DNA of 64,000 nucleotides from an uncultured Gammaproteobacteria bacterium (GCA_964507055.1 CAZDOJ010000001.1:913313-977312); one strand, 5' to 3'; shown: positions 43,230 through 60,154, numbered from the stretch's first letter. The notes: generated by a model from the letters alone, not told the origin. Program-made: numbers and translations.

Positions 43230-45638
43230 TTAGGAGATATCTGCGTGAAGTGCACCAGTTCCGTCGATTGTAAAGTTTACTTTCTTGCCTCGATCGATTT
43301 CTTTGGTCAATCGTTTCTGAGCAATCATATCTTCAACAGTATCCTGTAAATATCGACGTAACGGTCGAGCACCAAAATCTTTATCAAATCCTTCTTGCGT
43401 AATCTTTTCGATGACTGCATCATCAAAAGAAAGTGTAATATCTTGTTTTGCTAATGATTCTATCAGCTGATCGAGTAGCAGCTTTGTCACTGCGATCACT
43501 TGTTCCGGACCAAGTGGTTTAAATGTTACAACATCGTCAAAACGATTAAGTAATTCTGGTTTGAAAATGCCTTTTGTTTGTAGTTGTTCCAAAAGACGTT
43601 GCTCAAATTTCTTATCTATTGGTGTACCCTTTTCAACTTCTTCACGGATGAACTCAGATCCTGCATTTGATGTTGCGATGATAATAGCATTACGGAATGA
43701 AACAGTCGCTCCTTTATTATCTGTTAATCTTCCATCATCAAGCACTTGAAGGAAGAGATTGTGAATAGCAGGATTTGCTTTCTCAAATTCATCAAGAAGG
43801 ATAAGCGAGGCTGGATTATCATGGATTTTATCAGTCAATTGTCCACGATCTTCTCCTTCACCAGGAGCAGCTCCAAGAAGTCGTTTCAATCCATTTTCAT
43901 CTGTATATTCACTCATATCCAAACGAATCATTCGTTGTTCACCACCATAATAGAACTGTGCCAGTGCTTTCGCTGTTTCTGTTTTACCAACACCAGTTGG
44001 TCCCAAGAAAAGGAATGAGATTGGCCGTTCGCTTGTCGTCATCCCAGAGCGAATACGACGCATTGCTTCACTTATTGCAACAACTGCCGTATCTTGTGCG
44101 ATAACTCGTTCATGCAATTTATCTTCCAAATGCAATAATAAATTAATCTCCTGGCCTGTAGGAAGTGCTATGGCGACATGACTTGTTGCTTCTACTTTCT
44201 TTACAACATCTTGCTCACTGACCATTTTGCGATGCGTCTTTTCAAAGGCAGGTCGTTCTTTTTCCTGAGAGACAGCATTGGCTACAGTTTCGAGCAATGA
44301 TACGGCACTTCCCGGAAGTACTTGATCTTGGAAGAACCGTTCTGCTAGCTCAACGGCACTTACAAGTGCTCGATAACTTATAATTACTCTATATTTATCT
44401 TCAATTTTTGCAGCCTCGCCTAACGCCATTTGAATAGCATCCGCAGGCTCAACAGGTTTTAATTCAACAACGGTAAAGGCTTCTTTCAGAGGATTTTTTT
44501 CCATATATTTCTTGTACGTACCAGTTGTCATCGTCGCAACCATGGGAACATTACCGCTTTTTAGATATGGGAGAAGAGCTCCTGAAAGATCCAAACCATA
44601 AGAAGTCGCTCCAAGAATATTTTGGAAATCAGGAATATACATGAAGACATCATTGGCATGAGATATTTCAGCAATAATGTTTTGCAGTCGTGCTTCAAGA
44701 TCATTTCTATTTCCAGCACCCGCAGTCAAAGCACCTACTAATAATTGAAAGATTCGCTTGTGATTCAAATAACCACCCAAATTGCCACTAAAGCTGTGAT
44801 ATGCCAATGCTCTTACTAAATTCTCTTTTCCTGCACCGATATCTCCCACGATCAAAACATTATTATTTTCAATTTTGGTGAGACCTTCAAGCATTGTTTT
44901 AAATTCTGCTTCTCTGCCACCAATATGCGGTTCTGTCTGCAATGCATAATTTGTAAACAGAGCTGTATATTTCTTTGTCTCTGGTGTCCATCCGGAATTG
45001 AGTGCTTCACCGATACCACTTCCAGTAAATTTGATTCGTACAGGTTTGGGATTCTCTTCATCTGGCATATCAAGTCGAACCCAATACAGAATATTGTACA
45101 GATCAGTTATTTTAAGTTGCTTTGCAAAAAGAATCTTTGTGTCTTTTTCAATTAAGAATAAATATGCTACAAGCACATCAAGAGTTGTTACATATTTCGC
45201 TTTAAAAGTTTGTGCTGTTTGAAATGCACTTTGGGCAAGAAGTTTTTTATCAACATCATTTACCACTAATTCTTTACTTGTGATGTTGGCTTTTTGAAGG
45301 ACTAATTTTACTTGAGGGTAAGTGATTAAGCGTTTAATAAGCGTTGACGTATTTGGTTCTGTAATAAATCCATATAAAGCAGCGAGTGTAAACGATTCAT
45401 ACATATTTTCTTCTTTATTCTTTGACACTTCTATTGTTGGAACAGCACGACTCACTTTATAGTGAAAAAATACTTCAAACATTACAAACAAATTAAAAAG
45501 AAATACGCTAACCTTTGGAGGGATATCATATGCGATCTGATAAAGAATAAGCGAAAAAAGCATTGCAAAAATGACAAGCCTAATACTTCGTACAAGTGCG
45601 GTTCGATAAAAACGATATAGTCGGACAGATAATTCCAT
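43230..45638 (-). CDS. membrane-anchored Hsp100/Clp-family AAA+ ATPase with degenerate D1 and intact D2
   Basis: Two N-terminal TM helices (LVIFAMLFSLILYQIAY; VFLFNLFVMFEVFF). A Clp-N-like repeat. D1 Walker A degenerate (IVGDIGAGKEN) with no DE Walker B. D2 canonical ([34 protein letters not shown]). No ClpP-docking IGF loop. No M-domain. Confidence 0.7.
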   Translation of the reverse strand: MELSVRLYRFYRTALVRSIRLVIFAMLFSLILYQIAYDIPPKVSVFLFNLFVMFEVFFHYKVSRAVPTIEVSKNKEENMYESFTLAALYGFITEPNTSTLIKRLITYPQVKLVLQKANITSKELVVNDVDKKLLAQSAFQTAQTFKAKYVTTLDVLVAYLFLIEKDTKILFAKQLKITDLYNILYWVRLDMPDEENPKPVRIKFTGSGIGEALNSGWTPETKKYTALFTNYALQTEPHIGGREAEFKTMLEGLTKIENNNVLIVGDIGAGKENLVRALAYHSFSGNLGGYLNHKRIFQLLVGALTAGAGNRNDLEARLQNIIAEISHANDVFMYIPDFQNILGATSYGLDLSGALLPYLKSGNVPMVATMTTGTYKKYMEKNPLKEAFTVVELKPVEPADAIQMALGEAAKIEDKYRVIISYRALVSAVELAERFFQDQVLPGSAVSLLETVANAVSQEKERPAFEKTHRKMVSEQDVVKKVEATSHVAIALPTGQEINLLLHLEDKLHERVIAQDTAVVAISEAMRRIRSGMTTSERPISFLFLGPTGVGKTETAKALAQFYYGGEQRMIRLDMSEYTDENGLKRLLGAAPGEGEDRGQLTDKIHDNPASLILLDEFEKANPAIHNLFLQVLDDGRLTDNKGATVSFRNAIIIATSNAGSEFIREEVEKGTPIDKKFEQRLLEQLQTKGIFKPELLNRFDDVVTFKPLGPEQVIAVTKLLLDQLIESLAKQDITLSFDDAVIEKITQEGFDKDFGARPLRRYLQDTVEDMIAQKRLTKEIDRGKKVNFTIDGTGALHADIS

Positions 45639-45649
45639 AAATTAAATCA

Positions 45650-46027
45650 CTATAAAAACAATAACCAAATAGTTGCGAATGGCAAAAATATATACCCAAG
45701 AAATATTGTTACCTCAAGCAGCAAAAGGAGTGCGAGCATTAAGACATCAGCAAGGATAAGCCATGTTTTTACAAACATACCCATTGCTCTTGAAAAACCC
45801 ACAAGTCCTTGCCGATATTCATTTTTAATCGGTTGGAAATATGTTTTAAGGAACAACGGTAATGAGAATAAATGAAAGAATGAGCTGTTCAACGAAGCAA
45901 AGAACTGCAGTAATGATAAAGGACTTTCGTAGAACCAAAACTTCAAAAACATAAAAGGAATATTTAAATAACTTCTATGCCAGACAAAATGTGGTACATG
46001 AATTTGGACAGGTTTTACATTTTTCAT
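45650..46027 (-). CDS. small polytopic membrane protein (125 aa)
   Basis: Hydrophobic ORF lying 11 nt upstream of the membrane-anchored Hsp100. No family recognised. Confidence 0.4.
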   Translation of the reverse strand: MKNVKPVQIHVPHFVWHRSYLNIPFMFLKFWFYESPLSLLQFFASLNSSFFHLFSLPLFLKTYFQPIKNEYRQGLVGFSRAMGMFVKTWLILADVLMLALLLLLEVTIFLGYIFLPFATIWLLFL

Positions 46028-46132: not shown

Positions 46133-49100
46133 CTATTCAATCTCTTCTTGTCGAGTCTGTGGAGCTACATAATTAACAGGTCTAAAACTGTTAGGAATTC
46201 CAGAGTAATTGTAAGCCGTTTGAGGAGACATTGCCGCACCATTTGAAGCGACTCCATTTGCAGGAGGTGGTGTGCTATCTACTGCACCATTCGGCAAACT
46301 TGTTGGTGCTGGCGTTTGGAATACAGGGCTCGTATTCTCTGCCTGAGCAGGAGCCGCAGGTGATGCCGGAGCAACTGGCACTGCTGCTGGATCATTCACA
46401 ACTGCACCAGCAGGGGCCGGAGCAACTGGTTCTGAACCTACAGGAGTATTCACTGGAGCATCAGCTGGAGTTGTTGAGTCTGTTGGTTGTTGAGATTGAT
46501 CTTGTGTCGAACCTTGTGCATCCTGCGGTGCATTAGGATCTGTTCCTTCGACAGGTTTATCTGTTGGAGGTTGATCTCCACCATCGGTAGGTTGTCCTTC
46601 TTGTGCTGCAGGTGCATCATCGACTGCGATATTCTTCACACCAGCTGTCTCGAGAACGAGAATAGCAATCTCATCCTTTTGTCCTGCAGCTGCCACCATA
46701 TCTTCAACCATCTTTTCTAGTTCCTCATATTTAACGGTATCCTTAACAGCCAATACTGCTGCTGCTAATTGATTGCCTTTTTGACTTGCTTCATTCAATT
46801 TCGCTTGAACTGATGTGTACTTCTCTTTATCAGATGGTGTCTCTGCTGTAACAGGATTATTGATAAGCAAGAGGTGCTTCTTAAAGTTACGCAGTGGTTC
46901 ATGTGCTAATTCTTCTTCGATAACTTTGAGAATCTCAGTAGCCAATGGATCGCCTGAGTCTTTTGCAGCTTGTAGTTCTTTCTGAATAGCTGCGATGTCA
47001 TCATCAGAAGTTATATCTGTAATTGCCAAGATCTTACTTGCAAGCTCATTATTCTCTTTCTTTGCCTTCTGCATCTTTTCATATACAAGATTAAACTGGT
47101 CTTTCACTTCAGGATCAGCGAGATAAAGTGGATTAATAAGCTGCTTTAGAACATTCTTGAATTTCGTGACAGGCTCTTCGTTGTGTGCTTCTTCCGCTTC
47201 TTCTACAAGCTCACTATTTACTGCTGCAAGGATATCTTCAGCCAAGCTATCTTCATTTTCTTTAGCAGCCTTCAAATCTGTCATCAAATCCTCAATTGCA
47301 GAATCGGAAGTTGTATCATTAACCGCGAGAATCTTAGTAGCCAAAGCATTTCCTCGTTGGCTCTCCATATTGAGTTTCTCATGGAGTTCCATGAACCGGA
47401 TCTTCTTATTATTATCTTTGATATCGTCAGGGTGAATGATTTCAAGAAGGATCTTTTTTAGCTTCAAAGACGCTTGGATCTGTTGTGCCATACTATTGGC
47501 AAGCTCAATAATTTCAAATGCTAAATTGTCACCCTTTGCCTTTGCTTCTTCAATCTGTTTACGCAATGTTTGAATCTGTTTCAAATCAGTAGAGACAGTC
47601 ACTTCTAAAATACTGCTTGCCATTGCATTCTTATCTGTTCGAGCTTGGATTAACTTGTCATGAAGGACAATAAATCGTGACTTATCAACTGTACTTGTAA
47701 TGTTGTCTGGATTTGCCAAGTTGATCAAAACAGTTCTGAACTGTTCATCAGATAATGGCATAACTGTTGCACCAGCTCCACCTTTGTTAAAGACGAACTC
47801 ATTTGTATTATCACTGTAATCAATAACAATCGTGTCCCCAGCAACAAATTTCTTTGAAATGATCGCTAATGCGATAGGATTCTCAATCGCTGTTTGGACA
47901 AGTCTTCGGAGAGGTCGAGCACCATAGACAGGATCATATCCATCTTTCGCAAGCTGATTGATAGCCTTTTCTGTGATCTGCAGATTGTAGCCTTGCTCTT
48001 TCAAAAGCTTTGCAGTCTTTGCGATCGCCAAACGTGCGATTCCAGCCATATGTTCTGGTTGCAATGGCTTAAAGATAACAACTTCATCAAAACGATTAAG
48101 GACTTCCGGACGGAAGAATTTAATAAGTTCTTCGCGAACTTTAACCTGCATATCCTTAAAGATTTTTTCAAACTCTTCTGGAGTTCTCTTTGCTTTTGAA
48201 TCCACGTTGCTCAAAAATTGCTGGATAATGCCACTTCCGATATTGGAAGTACAAATAACGATAGTATTCTTAAATGAAATTGTATTACCTTTGTTATCAG
48301 TCAAACGTCCATCTTCAAGCAGTTGGAGCAAGATATTAAATACATCAGGATGAGCTTTTTCGATTTCATCAAGAAGTACGATAGAATAAGGTTTCTTTCG
48401 AACAGCTTCAGTTAATTGGCCACCTTCTTCATATCCAACGTATCCTGGAGGTGCACCAATAAGTTTTGCAACTTCATGCTTCTCCATGTATTCAGACATA
48501 TCCATACGAGCCATTGCATCATCACGTCCGAAAAGAAGTTCTGCAAGTGTCTTTGCAAGTTCGGTTTTACCTACACCGGTAGGACCAAGGAATACGAAAG
48601 ATGCGATAGGGCGATTTGCTGCAGCTAAACCGATTCTTCCACGTCGTACAGCTTCCGAAACAGCACCAACAGCTTCTTCTTGATCAACCATTCTATGATG
48701 GATTCGGTCCTCAAGCTTAAGAAGCTTTTCACTTTCATCTTCAGTAAGCTTCGTAATTGGAATACCAGTCCAAGCACTGACGACTTTTTCAATATCAGCC
48801 TTTTTGATTGATGTATCTCCTCCACCACGATTACCACCGTCTATTTGGAGCTTAACTTCAGAAGCAGCTTCATCGAGAAGGTCGATCGCCTTATCTGGAA
48901 GGTATCTTTCACCAATATATTTTTTAGAAAGTTTGACACACTCTTTCAAAGCATCATCTGGGATTTGAATTCTGTGGAATTTCTCGTACTTTGGTCGAAT
49001 AACCTTAAGCATCTCGAACGCATTCTCTTCACTTGGTTCATCTGCAGTGACAGGCTGGAATCGTCGTTCAAAGGCCTTATCTTTCTCAAAATTCTTTCGA

Positions 49101-50428
49101 TATTCAATAGTTGTTGTTGCACCAATAAGCTGGAAATGACCACGTGCCAAATGAGGCTTGATGATGTTTGCTGCATTCATACCTTCACCCTCGCCAGTTC
49201 CCATCAAAGCATGAATTTCATCAATAAAGAGAATGATTCGATTATTTGAACCAAGTACCTCGTTAATAACACCTCGCATACGTTCTTCAAATTCTCCTCT
49301 GTGACTTGCACCAGCAACTAACGACGCCACATCAAGTTGGAAAATCCTTTTTTCCTGAAGATCTTTTGGAACTGCACCCTGTACAATTTTTTGTGCAAGC
49401 CCTTCGACTAATGCTGTTTTACCAACACCAGGTTCACCGATAATAATCGGATTATTTTTTGTTCTTCGAAGCAAAACATGGACCATACGATCAACTTCTT
49501 TATCACGCCCAGCAACGGGGTCAAGGCGTCCCGCTCGAGCTTCTTCAGTAAGATCAATACCATATTTTTCAAGAACTGTCTTCTTCCCAAAATTGCTATT
49601 AGGGTTTTTTGAAAGCTTCTCGACCATTTGCTCTTTCTTTAAGTTGTGCTTTTCCAAAAGTTTACCAGTGGTATATTTAGGATCAAAGAGTACTATTAAT
49701 ATATCTTCAGGTGCTATAAAGTTTGCTCCATGCATTTTTGCATCTCGATATGCTTGATCGAATACTTCTTGAGCGGTTTTACTCAGCGTTGGTTGGCCTT
49801 TATAAACCCCCATTTTTTCAGATGCTTGAATTTCTTTAGAAATTTGTCCACCATCAGCATTCATTTCCCCAAGCATTGCATACAACTGTTGGTCATAAAG
49901 AAGTCCAATAAGAACTTGATCAGGTTCAATGAACTGTTGCTTTATACGCTTTGTCTCTTCTTGAGCGTGTGTCAAAGCTTGTGTTGCACGAGGGTCAAGG
50001 TGACTGAGAGCTGAAAGATCCGATTGACCTGCTGCGGGATGTGCTGTTGCACCATCAGATCCTGCAGGTGCTTGTCCCGGTTGACCTGGCTGAGCAGCCT
50101 GACCTGGTTGTGCGTTTGGATCTGGTTGTCCTTGTTGTGGGTTTTGACCATCTTGAGATGCTCCTTGTTGTACTGGCTGACCGGAAGCATCGGTTTGAAC
50201 AGGAGCATTTGGATCAGCAGGACCTGATGAAACTGGGGTTTCGTTTGTCGGAGACTGTACTGCATTCGGATCAGATGGAGCCCCAGTTGGGACAGGAGCA
50301 GCAGTGCTTGCATTTGGGTCAGCAGGAGATTGAGCCTGTGTATTTTGAGGCTGATTTTGAGCACCATTTGGTTGAGGAGTTATACCATCTGGTTGATCTT
50401 TTTTCTGGTTAAAAATGTTTCCGAACAT
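46133..50428 (-). CDS. giant Hsp100/Clp-family double-AAA+ ATPase (1431 aa) with low-complexity termini and four C-terminal repeats of about 95 aa
   Basis: Clp_N repeats. D1 [17 protein letters not shown] / [11 protein letters not shown]2 [19 protein letters not shown] / [15 protein letters not shown] / GARPLRR. Only about 20 aa separate the D1 small subdomain from D2, so there is no ClpB or ClpC M-domain. No IGF/IGL ClpP loop. PQG-rich residues 1-140 and 1270-1431. Confidence 0.75.
46619..47776 (-). repeat. intragenic tandem protein repeats (4 x about 95 aa) in the Hsp100 giant; same family as in the adjacent membrane protein tail
   Basis: Units begin L[AI]NP or IIHP and contain GN.LA..IL.V.D.TS...I..L...L.AAK..GD.LA.EIL (residues about 898-1270). 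Confidence 0.7.
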
Positions 50429-50528
50429 AGTCCTATTATCTATTAAATACTAAATTTTCACAAAGAACAAGCCCCCCTAAAAAGAGTTATTCGTTCTTGT
50501 TGTCTTTACAGACTTTTCTATTATTTGC

Positions 50529-53500
50529 CTAATTTTTAGCACTTTCGTCTTCTTTTTTATCATTCTCTGTTGCAGACAATTCTTGTGCTGATTCAGACTT
50601 ATTTGTATCGACTGTAATAGCAACTTTACCTTCTTCGTCTTTTTGCAATTCTGCTATAACATTCTTTCCGGCTTCTGCCTTGGCTTTTAAGTAGCCCATA
50701 ACTTCTTGTGATGAGAATCCTCCAAGCATAAGCATTGGCAATATCTCAGAGACCTTCTCCATTCCTTCTGCTTGCTTTTGCGTATCAGATGAACCGAGCA
50801 ATTCAATAGTTTCTTCTACCATCTTTACATCGGATTCGATCCATGCGATACGACCTGTTGCTTCACTACCAAATTCTGCAGGAACTGGAAGTGTTCTATA
50901 ATTTTCTTCCCATAGCTTTTTAACTTCTTCATAATCTTCATCAGAAACTGGTTGAAGTTTGTTATCTTCAGGAGCGATACTATCATCAGGGAGATGCTCA
51001 AGAATTGATTGAGCAACTGGTTCTCCCTTTGCGTTTGCATCTTTTAGTTTCTCACTAAGTTTTTCTATGTCATCTACTGAAGTAACATCTTTTGTAGCAA
51101 GAATCTCTTTTGCTAACTCATTTCCTTCTTCACTCGCCTTAGTGAGAGAATCATGTAATTCAGTAAATCGTTTCTTATCTGCCTCTACCGTCGACTTTGT
51201 AGGATCTGCAATCTGAGAAAGAACAGTCTTTACAGTATCAGATTTCTTCCCTTGAGCCTTCATTGATGCTCGAAGAAGAACCGCAGCAGTAACATTACCT
51301 TTCTGTTTTTCATCTAATAGGGTCTGGCGTACGTTCTCAAACTTAGATCTTTCAGTGCTATCTGTTATCGCTGAAGGATTTGCAATCTTACTAAGAACGC
51401 TTTGTACTTTCTCTATCTCTGCTGTCCGTGAAGCATCTTTCTTCAATGCTCTTGTTTCAAACTGTGCAATATCTCTCAGTTTTGGAACCTGTAAATTAAC
51501 CATATTGAATATTTCATTCGAGATTTGAGGAGCAGAGATAGTTGTATGATTTGTGACATTTGTTACATTTCCGAGAGAACTAAGAGGACTCTCATCTTCA
51601 TCATCAGCAGAACTCGAGCTTGAACCAGCTGAGCTACTTGAATCAGATGAATCTGTTTGCTCCATAGATGCAACCATAGTCTTTGCAGCATGAGTGGATG
51701 TTGTATTAACACTAATCTTATCTTCTTCGTCTGCAGCCAATGTCTTGGATACATCTTTCGCAGCATCCTGCTTTGCTTGGAGATACGAGACGATTTCATT
51801 TTGTGAAAAACCTCCAACCATAAGGAAAGGTAAAATGTTTGAAACTTGCTGCATACCTTCTTTGACTTCTTCCTCATTGGTTGACGAGAGTAATCCAATA
51901 GTTTCATCAATACTTTCGATATCATCTTTAATCCACTCTGATCGAGTACCAGCCATACCTTGAGGTACTTCGAGGTTTTGGTAGTTCTGCTTCCACATAT
52001 CTCGAACTGCCTGATAGTCTTCTTTACTAACATTCTGTACCCGATTAGTAGTAGGCAATGAAGCAGTCTTTTGTGCCAATGCCGCAACTTCTGCTGCCAC
52101 TGGTTCACCTTTTACTTGAGCCTCTTGAATCTTCTGTTGTAATGCCTCAATTTCAGACACTGATGTTTTATCACTTACTTTAAGAATTGATGTAGCAAGT
52201 TGGTTTCCTTGAGAGCTTGCTTTTTCAAGAGTTGCTTTCAATTTGGTAACAGCCTGTTTATCTGCAGTGTGTGTTACAGAACCAGGATTCGCCATCTGTG
52301 AAAGAACATTCTTAATTGATGAAGTTGCTTGAGCTTGTTGCTGTACTGTTGTTGAAACTGATTTTCCAAGATGAGTATTAGAGACTTGACTCAATTGCCC
52401 CTGAATCTTCTCAATTTCTTTATCTGATGTCTTATCACTTACTTTAAGAATTGATTGAGCAAGTTGACTTTTTTCTGTGGTCTTTGCCCCCTGGCTTTCT
52501 TTAACAAGCATTCCATTGAGCTTTGTCATCTTGTCACGATTAGTTACGTTCGCAAGTGAAGGGTTTGCCATTTGCTTTAAGGATTCACGCATCTGTTGAT
52601 TTGAGACTTGTGTATTGCGTTTCGCAGTTACGCTTGCAGCATTCATGATTGAGTTAGCAAGAAGATTACCTTTCTCATTATTTGTAGAGATATTCTCATG
52701 AATCTCAACATATCTATCTCTTTCTACAGTATTTGTAACTGATACCGGATTTGCGATTCTCTCAAGAGTCTGTGTCATTCGAGTAGTTTCTTGTTGCTTC
52801 GATTGGTCACGAGACATAAGAGCCGCATCGTATTTAGCAATGTCACGAAGACTAGGAACTTTAACATTTGCAGCACTGAGCACTTGGGCATTAACAGTTG
52901 CACTATTAATATTTGCCAATGGTATGGAGGTCGGCTGTGCAAAGGTTGCCTGCATATTCTGAACATTCAATTCCTTAGCTGCACCTGCAGGTCCAGGACC
53001 CAAATCCTTTGGTATTGCAAATTTCTTGGCAAAAGGTAATGCAATTGCGGCACCACCAGGAGATTCGGACTTACCACCGCCTCCAGGAGGTTGCTTATTC
53101 GTTGATGCCATATTAACAAGTGTTTTCATCACTGCTGTATCACCAGGAGCGAAATTGGAAGCATAATCCAGGAAAATCTGTAGCAAAATCCATGGAAGCA
53201 GAATAACAATCCACAACATGATAAGAGAAACAACATAAAGTGCGAAAGTTTCGATCAAGTTAACACTATTCGTAGGCGTAACGAACTGTCGTGGTCCACC
53301 AAGAAGAATATTAACAGCAGTAGGGAAGACAATTTGGCTTGCATTACCAATATTTGAATTAACGAATACAAGTGGGATCTGATTCTTCCAAAGATACACT
53401 AAACCATTAAGGAAGATCGCAAATAAAGGTGCATACAATAACCATCGGAAAAATTCTCCGATCCAGATCTTTGCTGTATTTCGAACAGGATAATAAAGGA

Positions 53501-54275
53501 GCAAGATTGGGAAAATTGGAGAAACAATAATGAAGAACCAAAGAATAATTTTTCGGACCAAAAGTAAGAAGACCATTACGAAATATGTCAGTGCAGTTAG
53601 TTTGGTCAATAAGAGAGAGATAAATGCAGACTCAGCATATTGATCCCCAAGCAAACGTAAACCTACAAAAGTTCGATAATCCCATCCTACATAAAGAAGA
53701 TCCTTTTGTGAGATACAATCCGGTGGACATGGATTATTGATATTTGAACGTAGAAAGAAACCTTGGATCAAATCGGTAAACTGATAGAAGAACTGCAGTA
53801 ACGAGTACGAGAATACAATAAGTAAGACAACAGCCACAAATCGTGGAATAAAACGCATGATTGTAAGACTTTTACCTCTGGTAATAATAATAACCATTGA
53901 GGTTGCAAGAATAACAACAAATAAGAGTGGTACTACGATATAAAGAACGATCAATGACCAATACTGTGCGATTGGATTGTTACTGTCATCGCATTGTCTG
54001 TCGGTTACACGATTTACACAAACCCAGTTGTAATTCTTCAACGTCCAGTCAAGAAAAAGTCCTGCACGAGCAGCGTTCTTACCGATAAATGTAACTTCAG
54101 GATCAATAACCCAAATAGACTGAGAGGCTGCAGAAGATCCAGTTGTAGGTTGCTGTTGTCCAGGCTGCAATTGCGTACCGGGACCAGGACCACCGGCAGC
54201 AAAAGTATTAGCTGGAGAAGAAAACGCGATAATCGCAAAAATGAACGTGAATAGAATGGACAGAATTCTTTTCAT
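50529..54275 (-). CDS. large polytopic membrane protein (1248 aa): signal peptide, Cys-containing exo-domain, about 7 TM, then a hydrophilic tail of about 870 aa built from two duplicated super-units. Tentatively VirB6/TrbL-like
   Basis: TM segments lie between residues about 105 and 370. A Gly-rich linker (PPGGGGKSESPGG) follows. The tail carries ANP...GN.LA..IL.V.D.TS repeats (ANPVSV, ANPSLAN, ANPGSV, ANPSAI, ADPTKS). The motif W..NY..L.VP...G....WI..D....EETI.LL.S.....EGM..VS.ILP.LM.GGFS is duplicated (755-842 and 1113-1205). Confidence 0.6.
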   Translation of the reverse strand: MKRILSILFTFIFAIIAFSSPANTFAAGGPGPGTQLQPGQQQPTTGSSAASQSIWVIDPEVTFIGKNAARAGLFLDWTLKNYNWVCVNRVTDRQCDDSNNPIAQYWSLIVLYIVVPLLFVVILATSMVIIITRGKSLTIMRFIPRFVAVVLLIVFSYSLLQFFYQFTDLIQGFFLRSNINNPCPPDCISQKDLLYVGWDYRTFVGLRLLGDQYAESAFISLLLTKLTALTYFVMVFLLLVRKIILWFFIIVSPIFPILLLYYPVRNTAKIWIGEFFRWLLYAPLFAIFLNGLVYLWKNQIPLVFVNSNIGNASQIVFPTAVNILLGGPRQFVTPTNSVNLIETFALYVVSLIMLWIVILLPWILLQIFLDYASNFAPGDTAVMKTLVNMASTNKQPPGGGGKSESPGGAAIALPFAKKFAIPKDLGPGPAGAAKELNVQNMQATFAQPTSIPLANINSATVNAQVLSAANVKVPSLRDIAKYDAALMSRDQSKQQETTRMTQTLERIANPVSVTNTVERDRYVEIHENISTNNEKGNLLANSIMNAASVTAKRNTQVSNQQMRESLKQMANPSLANVTNRDKMTKLNGMLVKESQGAKTTEKSQLAQSILKVSDKTSDKEIEKIQGQLSQVSNTHLGKSVSTTVQQQAQATSSIKNVLSQMANPGSVTHTADKQAVTKLKATLEKASSQGNQLATSILKVSDKTSVSEIEALQQKIQEAQVKGEPVAAEVAALAQKTASLPTTNRVQNVSKEDYQAVRDMWKQNYQNLEVPQGMAGTRSEWIKDDIESIDETIGLLSSTNEEEVKEGMQQVSNILPFLMVGGFSQNEIVSYLQAKQDAAKDVSKTLAADEEDKISVNTTSTHAAKTMVASMEQTDSSDSSSSAGSSSSSADDEDESPLSSLGNVTNVTNHTTISAPQISNEIFNMVNLQVPKLRDIAQFETRALKKDASRTAEIEKVQSVLSKIANPSAITDSTERSKFENVRQTLLDEKQKGNVTAAVLLRASMKAQGKKSDTVKTVLSQIADPTKSTVEADKKRFTELHDSLTKASEEGNELAKEILATKDVTSVDDIEKLSEKLKDANAKGEPVAQSILEHLPDDSIAPEDNKLQPVSDEDYEEVKKLWEENYRTLPVPAEFGSEATGRIAWIESDVKMVEETIELLGSSDTQKQAEGMEKVSEILPMLMLGGFSSQEVMGYLKAKAEAGKNVIAELQKDEEGKVAITVDTNKSESAQELSATENDKKEDESAKN
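50646..52868 (-). repeat. intragenic duplicated super-units (2 x about 330 aa) carrying the ANP/GNxLAxxIL repeat family in the membrane-protein tail
   Basis: Super-unit A is residues about 470-845 (VKVPSLRDIAKYD...). Super-unit B is about 927-1210 (LQVPKLRDIAQFE...). Confidence 0.65.
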
Positions 54276-54283
54276 AAATATGT

Positions 54284-54586
54284 TTAACTAAACCCAGGAA
54301 CTCTCAAGATATCAACGACTACTACTTGAATAAATACATAACCGAAAATAGCTAATAATAACCCGGTAATCGCATAAAAAATATAGCTTTTTCCTACGTT
54401 TACTCTTTGTGGGTCCCCTCTTGAAGTCATAATAGTATATCCTCCAAGGATGAGAGCAATGAGAGCAACCCCTCCTACAAAACTTAACCCAATAGGGTAA
54501 AACTCTTGAACGAATCCAATTGGATCATTCGGCAAGCATCCGAAGTCAGTTGCGACACGATCCAATGGGCATGTAGTTGCAGCCAT
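54284..54586 (-). CDS. 100-aa two-TM hairpin protein, VirB2/TrbC-pilin-like architecture (tentative), with the conserved C-terminal motif DILRVPGFS
   Basis: N-terminal 30 aa with two Cys (CPLDRVATDFGC). TM1 IGLSFVGGVALIALILGGYTIM. Short basic loop. TM2 IFYAITGLLLAIFGYVFIQVVVV. Start verified at 54586..54584. It lies 8 nt upstream of the 1248-aa membrane protein. A paralogous module forms the C-terminus of the 58892..60154 protein. Confidence 0.45.
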   Translation of the reverse strand: MAATTCPLDRVATDFGCLPNDPIGFVQEFYPIGLSFVGGVALIALILGGYTIMTSRGDPQRVNVGKSYIFYAITGLLLAIFGYVFIQVVVVDILRVPGFS

Positions 54587-54652: not shown

Positions 54653-55537
54653 TTAGAACCAGCTTTTTTTTGAAGACTCACCCTTTTCTTCTTTCAGAAG
54701 GTCTTCCAGGAGTTGTTTCTCTTTATGACCTAATTTCTTTGGAACAACAACTTTAATCTTTACATAGTGATCACCTTTGCCACCGCCTCTAAGTCGTGGA
54801 ACTCCACGTCCTGAAAGTCTAATTAGTGTTCCTGGTTGCGTCCCAGCTGGAACACGAATTTTAACATCGCCTTCAATAGTTTTGATAGAAAGTTCAACAC
54901 CTAATGCAACCTGCGGATAAGAAAGTTCTTCTTCTGTGACAATATCATACCCTTCGCGTCCAAACTTTTTATCAGGTAGTACATCAATCAGAACATCATA
55001 GTCATCAAATCGAATCCGTGAACCTCGATCAACACCGGCTGGAACTTTGATCTTTTGCTTTTTCTCATTAATTGTTACATTCTTTTCTGCACCATGAACG
55101 GCTTCATCAAAAGACACTGTGAGAGAATAAACCGGTCTTCGAGGACGTTGTGCTCCAAAACCTCCACCAAAAAATTGCTCAAAAATATCAAATGGGTCAG
55201 AAAATCCACCAAAATCAGCACCTTGACCGTTCGAAGTATATGTATAACTAAATGGACCTTGCTGTCCTCCAAATGGCCCTCCTCCACCGAATGGTCCTTG
55301 TCCTGCTCCTTGCTCAAAGGCAGCATGACCAAACTGGTCATATTGTTGGCGTTTTTGTACGTTTGATAAGACTTCGTAAGCTTTCGTTACTTCTTTAAAT
55401 TTAGCTTCCCCTTCTTTTGTCTTATTTCGATCAGGATGATATTGCATAGCAAGCTTACGATATGCCTTTTTTATATCATCAGCACTTGCACTTTTCGTGA
55501 GGCCTAATATTTCGTAATAGTCTTTGGAATCTGCCAT
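54653..55537 (-). CDS. dnaJ: DnaJ-family co-chaperone (J-domain plus G/F region plus C-terminal domains; no CxxCxGxG zinc-finger module)
   Basis: [33 protein letters not shown] (HPD). G/F-rich stretch. 294 aa. Confidence 0.8.
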
Positions 55538-55600
55538 AGGTCATTATTATACTAAAAAAGCGCTCCTCGCGCCCTTTTCTTATTTATATCTAGACTGCAA

Positions 55601-57514
55601 TTAATCTACAACTTCGCCTTCCGCTGCTTTGTCTTTTTTATCTTTATCTTTTGGTTCTCCTTCAGCCGGTTCACCGTCTTTTTCTTCTTTCTCTATTTCT
55701 TCTGTATTTTGTGCTTGCTGTCCTTGTGCATATGCAGCTTCACCAATCTTTGAAAGCGTATCTGAAAGCTCTTTCGTCTTTGCTTCAATATCTTCTTTGC
55801 TACCAGTTTCTAGGATGTCTTTCAGTGCTTTAATCTTTTCTTCAACCTCAGTCTTTATCTCTGCTGGGACTTTGTCTCCGCCATCTTTCAATGATTTTTC
55901 TGCTGTAAAGATAAGTGCATCAGCATGATTTTTTGCTTCAATTACTGCTTTTTTCTCTTCGTCTTCTTTTGCATGAACTTCAGCATCTTGTGTCATCTTT
56001 TCTACTTCTTCTTTCGAAAGTCCTGTTGAACCAGTAATCTTAATACTTTGTTCTTTGCCTGATGCTTTATCTTTTGCTGTAACACTTACAATACCACTCG
56101 CATCAATATCAAATGTAACTTCAACTTGTGGAACACCTCGAGGTGCTGGTGGAATACCATCAAGAATAAACCGTCCAAGTGATTTATTATCTGCCGCCAT
56201 TGGACGTTCTCCCTGAAGAACATTAATTTCAACTTGTGTTTGATTGTCTGCTGCGGTTGAGAATGTCTGAGACTTTGATGTAGGAATTGTCGTATTTCGG
56301 TTAATTAATGGTGTTGAAACGCTTCCCAAGGTTTCAATTCCGAGCGTTAATGGAGTTACATCCAAAAGGAGGACATCTTTTACTTCTCCACCAAGAACAC
56401 CCGCTTGTACTGCTGCTCCTACTGCTACTACTTCGTCGGGATTTACTGATCGATTTGGTTCTTTACCAAAGAACTTTGTAACTGCATCAACAACTTTTGG
56501 CATACGAGTCATACCACCTACCATGATGACTTCATCGATTTCTGACTTTTGCTTCCCTGCATCACTTAATGCTTTTTCGACAGGTTTGAGTGATTTTTGG
56601 ATAAGATCATCGACAATTTGCTCAAGCTTTGCTCGAGTCAAAGTCATTGTTAAATGAAGTGGACCATCTTTGCCTTGTGTAATAAATGGCTGATTAATTT
56701 GTGCTTCTTGTGAAGTAGAAAGTTCGATCTTTGCTTTTTCAGCAGATTCTTTCAATCGTTGCAATGCTTGTGGATCTTTTCGAAGATCGATATTGTTTTC
56801 TTTATTAAATTCTTCAGCGATGTAATCGATAATTTTCTTATCGAAATCATCTCCACCAAGATGTGTATCACCATTTGTTGATTTCACTTCGTAGACACCT
56901 TCACCAAGTTCAAGGATTGAGATATCAAATGTACCTCCACCTAAGTCATAAACTGCGATTGTATGTGCGTTCTTTTTATCCAAACCATATGCAAGTGCTG
57001 CTGCTGTAGGTTCATTAATAATACGAAGGACTTCAAGACCTGCAATCTCACCTGCTTGTTTGGTTGCTTGACGCTCACTATCATCAAAGTACGCTGGCAC
57101 TGTAATAACAGCTTGTGTTACTTTATCACCGAGATATGATTCTGCGTCCGCTTTGATCTTCTGGAGAATCTGTGCTGAAAGTTCTTGTGGAGTGTAAGTC
57201 TTTCCATCAACTTCAACAACAGCCATATCATCACGACCTGCTTTAATTGTGTATGGAAGCCATTTAATATCTTCCTGAACTGTTGGGTCGTTGAATTTCT
57301 TACCCATTAATCTTTTGATAGAGAAGATTGTCTGTTTTGACTTCAAAACTAATTGTCTTTTCGCTACATCTCCAACCACATGAGATTTTGGATCTACGAC
57401 TGATGGTATAGTGTTGCGACCTTCTGCAGAGTGGATTACTTTTGGTGCTCCACCTTCCATAACGGCTACACATGAATTTGTTGTTCCTAAATCAATACCA
57501 ATTATTTTTCCCAT
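55601..57514 (-). CDS. dnaK: molecular chaperone DnaK (Hsp70)
   Basis: [33 protein letters not shown] and other Hsp70 signatures. Acidic C-terminus. Confidence 0.95.
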
Positions 57515-57526
57515 AAATTTCCTTTC

Positions 57527-58000
57527 TTAGTTCTTTTCAGAACCGACAGTCACTTGTGCTGCCCGTAATAATTTTTCGTTAAGCATAAATCCTACTCGTG
57601 TTTCTGAAACCACTTTGCCTTCTTTTCCTTCTTCGGTCGCAATTGCCTCCATTATTGATGGATCGAAGTCTTTGCCGATAGTTTCAATTTTTGTAACCCC
57701 TTCGGATTTTAAGATATCAAAGAAATGATTTGTGGTCACTTCTAGATTTTTATCTTGAACATGCTGTTGAGCAAGTAACAGTGTATCTAAAACTGTCAAA
57801 ATTCTCAAGAGCAAATCTTTGTTTGCTGATCTTATTAATTCTAATCGTTCGTCTGACGTTCGCTTTTGCAAATTTTGATAATCAGCAAGAGCTCTCTTAT
57901 ATTTGTTCTCTGACTCTTCCAATCGTTGCTCTAACTCTTCAATCTCTTTCGAGACTTCATCTACTTCTTGATCTTGTTGTGTTGTTTCGTCTTGTGTCAT
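57527..58000 (-). CDS. grpE: nucleotide exchange factor GrpE
   Basis: YKRALADYQNLQKR...VGFMLNEKLLRAAQV. Confidence 0.85.
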   Translation of the reverse strand: MTQDETTQQDQEVDEVSKEIEELEQRLEESENKYKRALADYQNLQKRTSDERLELIRSANKDLLLRILTVLDTLLLAQQHVQDKNLEVTTNHFFDILKSEGVTKIETIGKDFDPSIMEAIATEEGKEGKVVSETRVGFMLNEKLLRAAQVTVGSEKN

Positions 58001-58018
58001 GATCGTAATCCAATTATT

Positions 58019-58750
58019 CTACCAGCCCTTTGCACTCGTTTCAATAAGATCAGAGAAGTATCGAACTGTTGGAATAATTGTCGTATAGCGTAGACGTGCT
58101 GGTCCCAGTACTCCAATTCTTCCTTTTACATTCAATGGTGTTGTATATTCTGTGAATATAAACCCATATGGTCCACGAAGTCGTGTACCAAGCTCATCTT
58201 CAATTAAGATATGTACTTCTTCATCATCATGAACTGTTGCAAATATCGTTTCAAAGTTATCATATTCATCAAGTGCTTCAAGTAATGTTTTGGTAACATC
58301 AATGTCGTAAAACTCAGGCATCTCCAAAATATTTGCATATCCTGAACAATAGATTTCACCTTCATTCGTTGTCGCAATCGCTAATGTATTCGTCTTTTCA
58401 GCAAGTGAGCGTGTTGTTTCTTTTAAGAAACGCTGCATGCGTTCTCGATAATCCCAAACTTTTTCTTTTAACGCAACTTCTTCGACAGTCGAAAGTTCTT
58501 TTTCTTTCATCAACTCTCTGACGTAGAATTTCATTCCCTGTGCTGTTGGCACACGTCCAGCTGATGAATGAGGTTTTTTGAGATAACCATACTCAGACAA
58601 TCGAACCATTTCGTTTCGGATTGTCGCAGGACTAGCACTTAAATTATGCTTTTTTTCAATTGTTTCAGATCCGACAGGATCAGCAGTTTCTATGTATTCC
58701 TCTATGATACTACGAAGAATCTCAATTTGGCGTTGCGTTAAGTTATGCAT
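58019..58750 (-). CDS. hrcA: heat-inducible transcriptional repressor HrcA (short, 243 aa)
   Basis: LTQRQIEILRSIIEEYIETADPVGSETI...IRNEMVRLSEYGYL (winged-helix N-terminus). First gene of the hrcA-grpE-dnaK-dnaJ operon. ATG verified at 58750. Confidence 0.8.
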   Translation of the reverse strand: MHNLTQRQIEILRSIIEEYIETADPVGSETIEKKHNLSASPATIRNEMVRLSEYGYLKKPHSSAGRVPTAQGMKFYVRELMKEKELSTVEEVALKEKVWDYRERMQRFLKETTRSLAEKTNTLAIATTNEGEIYCSGYANILEMPEFYDIDVTKTLLEALDEYDNFETIFATVHDDEEVHILIEDELGTRLRGPYGFIFTEYTTPLNVKGRIGVLGPARLRYTTIIPTVRYFSDLIETSAKGW

Positions 58751-58768: not shown

Positions 58769-58795
58769 TTAGCAATAATATATCACGAGTGCCAA
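58769..58795. promoter_or_regulatory. CIRCE-like operator (TTAGCAATA-N9-GAGTGCCAA)
   Basis: 15 of 18 positions match the consensus TTAGCACTC-N9-GAGTGCTAA with the exact 9-nt spacer. It overlaps the hrcA promoter and lies 18 nt upstream of the hrcA ATG. Confidence 0.45.
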
Positions 58796-58805
58796 ACACT
58801 GTCAA
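58777..58805 (-). promoter_or_regulatory. sigma-70-type promoter of the hrcA operon (-35 TTGACA, 17 nt spacer, extended -10 TGATATATT)
   Basis: Minus strand TTGACA at 58805..58800. TATATT at 58782..58777, preceded by TGA. The CIRCE-like dyad occupies the spacer and the -10, which is typical for HrcA-repressed promoters. Confidence 0.5.
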
Positions 58806-58891: not shown

Positions 58892-60154
58892 GTGAGAAAA
58901 TATTTAAACTTTGTTACTGTATTTCTTTCCTTCATGTCTTTCCTTCTCTTCTTTAGTGTTGCGTCTGTTTACGCGGGTAACGCCGGTGAAATGGACGAAT
59001 GTAGCACAAGTGGTGTAAATCTTAATGCTGACCAAACGTGCATGGCTGGACTTAAATGTAATACTACTGACTACGATGATGAAATAGCAAAGAGACACGG
59101 ATGGGGTTACATTGTTCTAGGTTGGGAAGGACTTTGCGTTAAAGAAAAATTTGTGGACTGCACATGTGCAGGTGGTGGTGGTAAGGCAGGAATCGGACAA
59201 AATGGGATAGAATGTCCTGGAAAACCAACGGTGTATTGCAGTGACAAAGATGATGCCTGTTATTCACAAGGCGGAGCAACTATTGATAGAGGCGAGATTA
59301 ATTTTAATAAGAACGATGCAGCGTATACCGATACTGCTATAAGAAATGTCGCATGTACGCCTGTAAAACCAGAAGCAACTTGTACATGTATCGGCAACGG
59401 GACAGTAAATGAAAATAACTTTAGCTGTACTGCACCTGACGGTACGACAGGTACTGGAACATGCAAAAGCCAATTTCAATGTCAGCCTAACGACGGACAA
59501 ATCATACCACAAGATCAAATTGAAAATGCTCGGGGTAATGTTGACGGAAGTCACGTATTAAAAAACATTAAATGTGACAGACCTATGGCAGAATGTACAT
59601 GTGATCCAAATGTTGCAGCGAATGGTTTTCATTGTACACAATTTGGAAAGACAGAAACAGACACATGTGATACGCCAGAACAAAAATGCATTACAGATCC
59701 AAACTCAATACTTCTCAACGGAGAATCTACAGAGAATCAGCTTTTTGGTGGTGCACCATTAAAAGGTATTAGATGTGAATTACCAAATTTAGCAGACAAA
59801 CAAAAGATCTATCCAACAACGCCACCTCCACCTCCTCCTCCTTGTCTTGATAATTTGAATCCAGAAGGCTGTCCGACATTCAGTACAGCAGTTGGTAAAT
59901 TAGGCACTAAACCTGAGGAATTTATTAAATCGCTCTTTGCTGTGCTCTTGAGTGTTTCTGGAGGTATCGCGATTCTTCTTATCATGAGAGCTGGTTATCA
60001 AATGATGACATCTCAAGGAGAACCTCAAAAACTTAATAATGCACGGGACCACCTCGTTGCTGCTATTGTTGGACTTATTTTTCTTATCTTCTCTTTTGTA
60101 ATATTGCAGATTATTGGTTTTGATATCCTCCGTCTCCCTGGTTTTGGCGGCTGA
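58892..60154 (+). CDS. secreted Cys-rich repeat protein, poly-Pro linker, C-terminal two-TM hairpin module paralogous to the 54284..54586 protein (ends DILRLPGFGG)
   Basis: GTG start (an ATG lies in frame at 58934). Signal peptide. About three Cys-rich repeats with C[TS]C motifs (DCTCAGGGG; ATCTCIGNG; AECTCDPN). PTTPPPPPPPC linker. Hairpin module about 45% identical to the 100-aa protein, including GY..MTS.G.PQ and DILR.PGF. Confidence 0.5.
   Translation: MRKYLNFVTVFLSFMSFLLFFSVASVYAGNAGEMDECSTSGVNLNADQTCMAGLKCNTTDYDDEIAKRHGWGYIVLGWEGLCVKEKFVDCTCAGGGGKAGIGQNGIECPGKPTVYCSDKDDACYSQGGATIDRGEINFNKNDAAYTDTAIRNVACTPVKPEATCTCIGNGTVNENNFSCTAPDGTTGTGTCKSQFQCQPNDGQIIPQDQIENARGNVDGSHVLKNIKCDRPMAECTCDPNVAANGFHCTQFGKTETDTCDTPEQKCITDPNSILLNGESTENQLFGGAPLKGIRCELPNLADKQKIYPTTPPPPPPPCLDNLNPEGCPTFSTAVGKLGTKPEEFIKSLFAVLLSVSGGIAILLIMRAGYQMMTSQGEPQKLNNARDHLVAAIVGLIFLIFSFVILQIIGFDILRLPGFGG

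What the first reader, a model, noticed from the sequence alone, without database searches (positions are those of the whole stretch)
46619..52868. A roughly 95-aa repeat family (ANP...GNxLAxxIL.V.D.TS...I..L...L.A.K.GxPxAxEIL) shared between the cytoplasmic tail of the membrane protein and the C-terminus of the adjacent Hsp100
The Hsp100 giant carries four tandem units after its D2 domain (residues about 898-1270; nt 46619..47776): [11 protein letters not shown]..., [11 protein letters not shown]..., [12 protein letters not shown]..., [12 protein letters not shown].... Each ends with GN[AEQ]LA..IL.V.D.TS..........L.AAK..GD.LA.EIL.

The 1248-aa membrane protein tail (nt 50646..52868) contains at least five units of the same family: ANPVSV...EKGNLLANSIM; ANPSLAN...QLAQSILKVSDKTSDKEIEKIQ; ANPGSV...GNQLATSILKVSDKTSVSEIEALQQKIQEAQVKGEPVAAEV; ANPSAI...KGNVTAAVLL; ADPTKS...GNELAKEILATKDVTSVDDIEKLSEKLKDANAKGEPVAQSIL. 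These are organised as two duplicated super-units of about 330 aa, each ending in a conserved W..NY..L.VP....WI..D...EETI.LL.S.....EGM..VS.ILP.LM.GGFS block of about 90 aa.

I do not recognise this repeat as a named domain. A shared module on an AAA+ unfoldase and on its neighbouring membrane protein is the signature of a docking or oligomerisation interface. Alternatively the two arose by recent intragenic shuffling.
Basis: seen in the sequence. Interest (0 to 1): 0.8.

Follow-up and report, generated by a model that had tools for sequence, protein, structure and literature searches.

The report
Helical module shared by VirB6-like protein and ClpB
A previously undescribed 90-residue helical module occurs in the tail of a VirB6-like membrane protein and at the end of the ClpB unfoldase encoded next to it in uncultured Levybacteria, which suggests, without proving, that the unfoldase is tethered to a secretion or pilus platform.

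Summary
Both genes lie on the minus strand. ClpB (46133-50428) has four full units after its D2 domain. The membrane protein (50529-54275) has three full and two half units, plus two conserved 'W..NY' blocks.

The similarity is not compositional. Profiles built from one protein find the units of the other in register, at about 190 bits against at most 11 bits for shuffled sequence.

The unit is all-helical and arose by internal duplication of a ~30-aa helix-turn-helix. It has no Pfam family and no clear PDB fold relative. It is rare: 145 of 1.84 billion cluster representatives.

ClpB lacks the M-domain and carries units only in one monophyletic subclade. The units are positionally orthologous across genomes, so they were acquired once and long ago, not by recent shuffling.

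Docking of ClpB to the tail is the best reading but is inferred. The cytoplasmic location of the tail is also inferred.

The parts
46133..50428 (-). ClpB-like Hsp100 gene (1431 aa). It has a P/Q-rich N-terminal region (residues 1-145), an N-domain, D1 and D2, no M-domain, four C-terminal units and a disordered P/A-rich tail.
47468..47746 (-). ClpB unit c1 (residues 895-987)
   Evidence: AF2 pLDDT about 90.
47168..47467 (-). ClpB unit c2 (residues 988-1087)
46892..47167 (-). ClpB unit c3 (residues 1088-1179)
46634..46891 (-). ClpB unit c4 (residues 1180-1265)
46136..46633 (-). Low-complexity P/A/Q-rich C-terminal tail of ClpB, ending in [17 protein letters not shown]. This motif is conserved only in the nearest relatives.
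50529..54275 (-). Extended VirB6-like membrane protein gene (1248 aa)
53103..54113 (-). VirB6/TrbL-like polytopic domain (residues about 55-391), preceded by a signal-peptide-like N-terminus (1-26)
52599..52784 (-). Membrane unit m1, a half unit (residues 498-559)
52323..52598 (-). Membrane unit m2 (residues 560-651)
52041..52322 (-). Membrane unit m3 (residues 652-745)
51696..52061 (-). Conserved 'WNY / LPFLxxGGFS' block 1 (residues 739-860), closing super-unit 1
51240..51413 (-). Membrane unit m4, a half unit (residues 955-1012)
50961..51239 (-). Membrane unit m5 (residues 1013-1105)
50631..50975 (-). Conserved 'WNY / LPMLMLGGFS' block 2 (residues 1101-1215), closing super-unit 2
54284..54586 (-). 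VirB2-like small pilin ORF (100 aa, two TM helices joined by a charged loop). Its stop codon lies 8 nt before the start of the membrane gene.
   Evidence: Pfam T4SS_pilin 23.6 bits, below the cut-off of 26.6. NCBIfam pilin-like, weak. Immediately upstream in 66 of 72 loci.
54653..58750 (-). hrcA-grpE-dnaK-dnaJ, the upstream genes of the same cluster
58769..58805 (-). Best sigma-70-like promoter match, overlapping a CIRCE-like inverted repeat upstream of hrcA
43230..46027 (-). Downstream conserved pair: a small polytopic ORF (125 aa, 45650-46027) and a second Hsp100-like protein with an N-terminal TM hairpin (802 aa, 43230-45638)

Best explanation
What it is (shown):
- The repeat is a ~90-residue all-helical module specific to one lineage. 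It consists of a leader helix ending in A-N-P, followed by two copies of a ~30-aa helix-turn-helix ('..L...L..A...GN.LA..IL').
- The module is native to the long C-terminal tail of an extended VirB6-like membrane protein of Levybacteria (CPR/Microgenomatia).
- That protein is encoded together with a VirB2-like pilin inside the heat-shock operon hrcA-grpE-dnaK-dnaJ-...-clpB.
- One subclade of the neighbouring ClpB, which has no M-domain, acquired an array of these modules once, long ago. The array sits directly behind the D2 domain and has been inherited vertically in 1-6 copies.

How it probably works (inferred):
- The modules are cytoplasmic protein-protein contact elements.
- They hang from the D2 (substrate-exit) side of the ClpB hexamer.
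- They associate with the homologous modules or the WNY block of the VirB6-like tail.
- This keeps the unfoldase, and with it the DnaK system, at the VirB2/VirB6 membrane platform.
For: Repeat:
- Real and in register.
- The unit is an internal duplication (hhalign probability 97%, E 2e-11).
- Confident all-helical AF2 model (pLDDT 88).
- Restricted to this family: 145 hits among 1.84e9 representatives. Those lacking the VirB6-like domain are ClpB fusions or apparent fragments; the eight short ones read are ClpB C-terminal pieces.

Identity of the membrane protein:

Linkage:
- clpB directly downstream in 59 of 67 loci (median gap 49 nt) and within about 1.5 kb in 6 more.
- Pilin-like ORF directly upstream in 66 of 72 loci; dnaK upstream in 56 of 62.

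Single old acquisition:
- Unit-bearing ClpBs are monophyletic.
- Units are positionally orthologous.
- Unit-less ClpBs have no cryptic units.

ClpB:
- It lacks the M-domain that canonical ClpB uses to dock DnaK, so another way of being targeted is plausible.

Cytoplasmic tail:
- The same module sits on cytoplasmic ClpB.
- Positive-inside counts favour it (residues 371-470 net +4.2).
- Cysteines occur only in the N-terminal segment and the 166-216 loop.
Against: - No physical interaction was tested or modelled; no multimer prediction was available.
- 46 of 59 adjacent gene pairs have a ClpB with no units. If the two proteins cooperate, the units are not required for it.
- Unit numbers do not co-vary, and same-genome units show no excess similarity.
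- In the R388 structure only two N-proximal helices of VirB6 are in the membrane and the bulk is periplasmic (PMC12857230). By analogy the tail could be extracellular.
- From my own knowledge, the C-terminal domain of F-plasmid TraG is periplasmic, which is a precedent for an extracytoplasmic extension.
- Co-transcription is inferred only from spacing and from one promoter/CIRCE-like site.
Confidence: 0.45

Rival explanations
1. Shared third partner. The modules on ClpB and on the VirB6-like tail do not bind each other. Each binds the same ligand, for example DnaK/DnaJ/GrpE, the cytoplasmic loop of the pilin, or a client protein. The two proteins are therefore recruited to, or compete for, a common factor.
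For: - ClpB lacks the M-domain that normally contacts DnaK.
- The unit-bearing genes sit in the dnaK operon.
- Multi-copy helical repeats are typical ligand-binding scaffolds.
- The lack of same-genome co-variation between ClpB and membrane units fits a conserved external ligand at least as well as mutual binding.
Against: - No candidate ligand was identified.
- M-domain-less ClpBs without units are the majority in the lineage, so the units cannot be the general replacement for the M-domain.
Confidence: 0.2
2. Extracellular tail with independent co-option. As in R388 VirB6, only the first two helices span the membrane. The repeat tail then projects outside the cell as a spacer or fibre. The copy on ClpB is a captured generic helical spacer or self-association module, with no contact to the membrane protein.
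For: - R388 architecture: the bulk of VirB6 is periplasmic (PMC12857230; PMC11294453).
- The AF2 model shows very long helices (211-260, 262-297) like the stalk helices.
- The roles of extended-VirB6 hydrophilic domains are unknown.
Against: - Positive-inside counts place residues 371-470 inside.
- The tail has no cysteines and is 25% charged.
- The module has been kept on a strictly cytoplasmic ATPase across a deep clade, with conserved motif residues.
- The gene sits in a cytoplasmic chaperone operon.
Confidence: 0.15
3. Recent intragenic or intergenic shuffling, or gene conversion, between the two neighbouring genes, with no functional meaning.
For: The genes are adjacent and share 25-37% identical segments.
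Against: - ClpB units are positional orthologues across genomes (42-97% identity) and reach at most 41% identity to any membrane unit.
- For 49 of 49 ClpB units the nearest neighbour in another genome is a ClpB unit; same-genome identity equals between-genome identity (0.285 against 0.284).
- Unit-bearing ClpBs are monophyletic.
Confidence: 0.02
4. Compositional artefact: K/E/A-rich coiled-coil-like sequence with no true homology.
For: The tails are rich in K, E, A and Q. Pfam gives only weak coiled-coil-type hits for single units.
Against: - Cross-protein HMMs score 189-194 bits against at most 11 bits for 500 composition-matched shuffles, with the register conserved.
- Invariant L7, P13 and A43 among the nine units of this window.
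- AF2 predicts compact helical bundles, not long coiled coils.
Confidence: 0.01

Closest known systems
Extended VirB6 proteins (Rickettsiales RvhB6, F-plasmid TraG, MPF-FA VirB6 of 700-900 aa)
   Same: - A large hydrophilic C-proximal extension with unstructured linkers.
- A neighbouring VirB2-like small pilin, as in Gram-positive T4SS (bioRxiv 10.64898/2025.12.18.695078).
- The role of the extensions is unknown in all of them (PMC12857230).
   Different: - The extension is built from a repeat family found nowhere else.
- The gene lies in the dnaK-clpB heat-shock operon, and no virB4 or virD4 was identified among the window ORFs scanned.
- The window protein itself gives no Pfam TrbL hit.
Hsp100 unfoldases that carry class-specific docking elements (ClpB M-domain with DnaK; ClpV N-domain with the T6SS sheath; ClpA/C/X IGF loop with ClpP; Plasmodium HSP101 in the PTEX translocon)
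   Same: - A two-ring AAA+ Hsp100 core, 50-60% identical to ClpB/ClpC over D1 and D2.
- An accessory element that could target the motor to a partner.
- PTEX HSP101 (6e10/6e11, listed) is an Hsp100 that sits on a membrane pore. That role is stated from my own knowledge of the PTEX structure.
   Different: - The accessory element is C-terminal, behind D2.
- It is homologous to part of the presumed partner.
- It is present in only one subclade.
- The M-domain and the ClpP loop are both absent (reading of the sequence).
- No interaction has been shown.
Generic alpha-solenoid or helical-repeat scaffolds (ARM/HEAT/TPR, designed helical repeat proteins)
   Same: - Tandem helix-turn-helix elements.
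- Weak sequence or fold resemblance to designed helical and armadillo repeat proteins.
   Different: - No Pfam, NCBIfam or PDB match at family level.
- The 90-aa unit with an A-N-P leader is distinct.
Pfam PF17969 Ldt_C (L,D-transpeptidase C-terminal domain)
   Same: One unit (m5) aligns to profile positions 1-50 at 23.8-25.7 bits. NCBIfam L,D-transpeptidase gives E 4e-4.
   Different: - Below the gathering threshold of 26.8 bits.
- Seen in 1 of 9 units and 1 of 28 family members.
- Most likely a chance match.

Membership tests
Hsp100/Clp (class 1, two AAA+ rings) | Two AAA+ modules with an AAA lid and a ClpB_D2-small domain | tested here: met
   Pfam AAA (328-441), AAA_lid_9, AAA_2 (606-783, 1.6e-69) and ClpB_D2-small. 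E 6e-207 to E. coli ClpB.
ClpB (disaggregase) sensu stricto | Coiled-coil M-domain inserted in the D1 small domain (the DnaK docking site) | tested here: not met
   The alignment to E. coli ClpB stops at residue 407 and resumes at about 517-529, while the query advances only about 8 residues.
ClpB (disaggregase) sensu stricto | Score above the NCBIfam equivalog cut-off (TIGR03346, 1232 bits) | tested here: not met
   880 bits. Also below the cut-offs for ClpA (697 against 993) and ClpV (653 against 885).
ClpA/ClpC/ClpE (ClpP partners) | [ILV]-G-[FL] ClpP-docking loop in D2 | tested here: not met
   Reading of residues about 730-775 ([29 protein letters not shown]...). No IGF/VGF/LGF tripeptide is present. 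This was a visual check only.
VirB6/TrbL | Match to Pfam PF04610 | tested here: inconclusive
   No hit for the window protein. 12 of 28 family members hit at E<=0.1, best 2.7e-6.
VirB6/TrbL | VirB6 fold | tested here: met
   [not shown]
VirB6/TrbL | Works within a T4SS: neighbouring VirB2-like pilin, and VirB4/VirD4 ATPases | tested here: inconclusive
   A pilin-like ORF is adjacent in 66 of 72 loci, but the window ORF is sub-threshold for PF18895. No VirB4 or VirD4 among the window ORFs scanned. The rest of the genome could not be examined.
Ldt_C (PF17969) | Score at or above the gathering threshold of 26.8 bits | tested here: not met
   25.7 and 23.8 bits, one unit only. 1 of 28 family members.
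Known helical repeats (TPR, HEAT, ARM, Sel1) or coiled coil | Profile match or fold match | tested here: not met
   [not shown]

The most novel reading that the evidence does not exclude
The operon encodes a chaperone-powered membrane machine. An M-domain-less Hsp100 hexamer is docked by its C-terminal modules under a VirB6-like pentamer. It extracts or unfolds VirB2-like pilins or other clients and feeds them into or through the VirB6 platform. This would be a bacterial counterpart of the Plasmodium PTEX (HSP101-pore) arrangement, and an ATPase for a T4SS-type platform other than VirB4/VirD4, under HrcA heat-shock control.
Probability: 0.12. Interest if true: 0.9.

Novelty: new variant of a known kind. 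Interest (0 to 1): 0.62.

Why it matters
- VirB6 homologues were reported as scarce in Microgenomatia, with extreme divergence suspected (PMC12102498). This family is a clear structural VirB6, and it is found at an unexpected place: inside the dnaK-clpB operon of essentially all sampled Levybacteria.
- What the hydrophilic domains of extended VirB6 proteins do is unknown (PMC12857230). Here such a domain shares a module with an AAA+ unfoldase encoded next to it. That gives a concrete, testable hypothesis of physical coupling between a chaperone or unfoldase and a T4SS-type platform.
- It also defines a new domain family and an unusual Hsp100 class with no M-domain, no ClpP loop and long disordered ends.
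- The limits are plain. The organisms are uncultured, the function is inferred from synteny and homology only, and the module is confined to one CPR lineage.

Tried and rejected
- Pfam, NCBIfam and PDB sequence searches with single units, the unit profile, the WNY-block profile and the whole-family profile found no family-level match.
- The Ldt_C hit was examined and set aside as sub-threshold and not family-wide.
- Short 'stand-alone' unit proteins from the representative search (eight read: P0163, P0174, P0187, P0196, P0198, P0199, P0205, P0212) turned out to be pieces of the ClpB C-extension; five of them (P0196, P0198, P0199, P0205, P0212) run to the ClpB C-terminus (...AYNY...E).
- Co-variation of unit number between the two genes: none.
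- Same-genome excess similarity (gene conversion or co-evolution): none.
- Cryptic units in unit-less ClpBs: none, even with hmmsearch --max at E<=10.
- Literature searches for a Levybacteria or Microgenomates dnaK/clpB/T4SS link found nothing relevant. The CPR 'Pam pilus' preprint concerns unrelated Ig-like pilins.
- The conserved ClpB C-terminal peptide (...QEEIE) was considered as an EEVD-like docking motif. It is confined to the nearest relatives, so it was not pursued.
- TM topology could not be settled. Hydropathy alone gives 6 segments, which would put the tail outside. The AF2 helices give 5, which would put it inside. Positive-inside counts favour inside.


Full report
**1. The observation**

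The region holds two large ORFs on the minus strand:
- a ClpB-like protein of 1431 aa (46133-50428);
- directly upstream of it in the direction of transcription, a 1248-aa protein with a hydrophobic N-terminal third (50529-54275).

BLASTP of the ClpB C-extension against the membrane-protein tail, with composition-based statistics, gives a ladder of register-shifted alignments down to E 4e-18.

Cutting the sequences at the recurring A-N-P motif and aligning them gives nine units with a common register:
- four full units in ClpB: residues 895-987, 988-1087, 1088-1179, 1180-1265;
- three full and two half units in the membrane protein: 498-559 (half), 560-651, 652-745, 955-1012 (half), 1013-1105.

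The decisive control is cross-validation.
- A profile built only from the membrane units finds all four ClpB units over profile positions 2-84. It scores 188.8 bits, against a maximum of 9.2 bits in 500 composition-preserving shuffles.
- The reverse test scores 193.9 bits against 11.0.

The similarity is therefore homology, not K/E/A-rich composition.

Each starts with a VPxLRDIAxY/F motif and ends in a 110-120-aa block (W..NY...LPFLxxGGFS..E...YLKAK). This block is the best-conserved part of the whole tail and does not occur in ClpB.

**2. What the unit is**

- A profile-profile comparison of the two halves of 157 full units shows that the unit is itself a duplication of a ~30-aa element, '..eI..L...L..A...GN.LA..IL' (hhalign probability 97%, E 2e-11). 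The half units are one such element behind the A-N-P leader helix.
- AlphaFold2 on ClpB residues 880-1275, with 60 homologues, gives a confident all-helical model (mean pLDDT 88, pTM 0.64). Each unit has four to five helices.
- Pfam, NCBIfam and PDB sequence searches give no family. The one sub-threshold Ldt_C hit concerns one unit of nine and one family member of 28.
- An exhaustive HMMER search of 1.84 billion cluster representatives with the unit profile finds only 145 proteins. Most carry the same VirB6-like N-terminal domain. Those without it are two ClpB fusions or apparent fragments; the eight short ones read are ClpB C-terminal pieces.

The unit is thus a new domain family confined to one lineage.

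**3. What the two proteins are**

*The membrane protein* has homologues in Levybacteria and other Patescibacteria MAGs: 652 clusters, 723-2147 aa long, with 2-16 units among the 120 listed.
- TrwI chains are also the top Foldseek hits (probability 0.99-1.0).
- 12 of 28 family members reach Pfam TrbL/VirB6 (best E 2.7e-6).
- The 100-aa ORF ending 8 nt upstream is a VirB2-like two-TM pilin (sub-threshold PF18895; sequence). This is the arrangement described for Gram-positive T4SS.
- With its 850-aa hydrophilic tail, the protein belongs to the 'extended VirB6' proteins, whose extensions have no known role (PMC12857230).
- A survey of Patescibacteria T4SS found VirB6 'scarce' in Microgenomatia and suspected divergence (PMC12102498). 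This family may be that missing VirB6.

*The ClpB* aligns to E. coli ClpB at E 6e-207, but the whole M-domain is missing.
- I see no ClpP-docking tripeptide in D2.
- It falls below the NCBIfam equivalog cut-offs for ClpB, ClpA and ClpV.
- Both ends are long low-complexity regions.

**4. Context and evolution**

A scan of one genome per species returned 79 loci. The order hrcA-grpE-dnaK-(dnaJ)-pilin-VirB6like-clpB-(dnaJ)-orf125-clp2 recurs throughout. Counts:
- clpB follows the membrane gene within 600 nt (median gap 49 nt) in 59 of 67 loci with enough sequence, and within about 1.5 kb in 6 more;
- a pilin-like ORF precedes the membrane gene in 66 of 72 loci;
- dnaK lies upstream in 56 of 62 loci.

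In the window, the best promoter match and a CIRCE-like inverted repeat lie just upstream of hrcA.

Only 13 of the 59 adjacent ClpBs carry units. The others have only disordered C-terminal tails and no cryptic units.

Among the 119 closest ClpB clusters, about 100 carry 1-6 units directly behind D2-small. In a neighbour-joining tree of the cores they form one clade; the single apparent exception is a protein cut off at a contig end.

The units are positional orthologues.
- Window units c1-c4 match c1-c4 elsewhere at 42-97% identity but reach at most 41% to any membrane unit.
- For 49 of 49 ClpB units, the nearest neighbour in another genome is a ClpB unit.
- ClpB-to-membrane identity is the same within and between genomes (0.285 against 0.284).

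The module is therefore ancestral in the VirB6-like tail. It was copied once to the 3' end of clpB and has since been inherited vertically under constraint. Recent shuffling is excluded. Unit numbers in the two genes do not co-vary.

**5. How it probably works**

Shown:
- a shared, structured module under selection;
- an invariant gene neighbourhood that joins a VirB2/VirB6 pair to the DnaK system and to two Hsp100 paralogues. The second paralogue (clp2) has an N-terminal TM hairpin and a small polytopic partner, orf125.

Inferred:
- The tail is cytoplasmic. The arguments are that the same module sits on ClpB, that positive-inside counts favour it, and that cysteines occur only in the two segments that are external in either topology.
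- The modules mediate contact between ClpB and the tail. They emerge from the D2 side of the hexamer, which is the side where substrate exits in Hsp100 proteins (established knowledge of the family). Multivalent contact with a probably pentameric VirB6 tail would hold the unfoldase under the platform.

I put this at about 0.45.

Rivals:
- The modules bind a common third partner (0.2).
- The tail is extracellular, as the R388 architecture would suggest, and the ClpB copy is an unrelated co-option (0.15).

The main weakness of any unit-based docking model is that most lineages keep the gene pair without units on ClpB. If the proteins cooperate generally, the units can only reinforce the link; they cannot create it.

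**6. Comparison, novelty and verdict**

The closest known things are:
- extended VirB6 proteins (same fold and same kind of unexplained extension);
- Hsp100s with class-specific docking elements (M-domain, ClpV N-domain, IGF loop, PTEX HSP101).

Neither has a module shared between the motor and the membrane partner, and none lies in a heat-shock operon with VirB2 and VirB6. I rate it a new variant of a known kind.

The finding is real and of moderate to high interest (0.62). The 'recent shuffling' idea does not survive.

Noticed in passing
window 46133-50428 (-), protein residues about 530-545: The ClpB-like protein lacks the entire coiled-coil M-domain and has no ClpP-docking loop. It falls below the NCBIfam cut-offs for ClpB, ClpA and ClpV. 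The unit-less relatives have the same core length, so the whole lineage appears to lack the M-domain.
   Followed up: partly
window 43230-46027 (-): A conserved downstream pair. One gene is a 125-aa polytopic membrane ORF. The other is a second Hsp100-like protein (802 aa) with an N-terminal TM hairpin and a degenerate D1. The pair is present in most Levybacteria loci.
   Followed up: partly
window 54284-54586 (-): A 100-aa VirB2-like pilin ORF (two TM helices and a charged loop) whose stop lies 8 nt before the start of the VirB6-like gene. It is sub-threshold for PF18895, yet a pilin-like ORF occupies this position in 66 of 72 loci.
   Followed up: partly
window 58892-60154 (+): A 420-aa protein with a C-terminal T4SS_pilin domain (33.9 bits, above the cut-off), transcribed divergently from hrcA. 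A similar gene sits at this position in the closest relatives.
   Followed up: no
window 58769-58805: A CIRCE-like inverted repeat (3 mismatches) overlaps the strongest -35/-10 match (TTGACA-17-TATATT with a TG extension) just upstream of hrcA. This suggests HrcA control of the cluster.
   Followed up: partly
loci L026, L034, L037, L039, L044, L046, L050-L069 compared with L001-L025: The position of dnaJ differs between clades. In one it lies between dnaK and the pilin gene; in the other it lies after clpB. The pilin-VirB6like-clpB core stays intact in both.
   Followed up: no
window 46136-46240 (-) and 55601-55660 (-): ClpB ends in ...[17 protein letters not shown] and DnaK ends in ...EGEVVD. 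Both are acidic C-termini reminiscent of the eukaryotic EEVD motif. The ClpB motif is conserved only in the nearest relatives.
   Followed up: partly
window 40174-43140 (-) and 36680-40171 (-): Two large surface-type proteins follow the cluster. One has SdrD_B, CarboxypepD_reg and VWA domains; the other has CBM_4_9, DUF2341 and Laminin_G_3 domains. An SdrD-like gene is inserted between clpB and dnaJ/orf125 in some loci.
   Followed up: no
loci L003-L081 (record titles): Many GTDB species-representative MAGs carrying this Levybacteria-type operon are titled 'uncultured Gammaproteobacteria bacterium'. This is evidently a mislabel in the deposited records.
   Followed up: no
locus L075: An 864-aa ORF with nine units and one WNY block but no VirB6-like domain lies between the membrane gene (1205 aa) and clpB. 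It is most likely a frameshift-split long gene: the combined length of 2069 aa is close to the 2037-2050 aa of relatives. If it is genuine, it would be a soluble stand-alone repeat protein.
   Followed up: no
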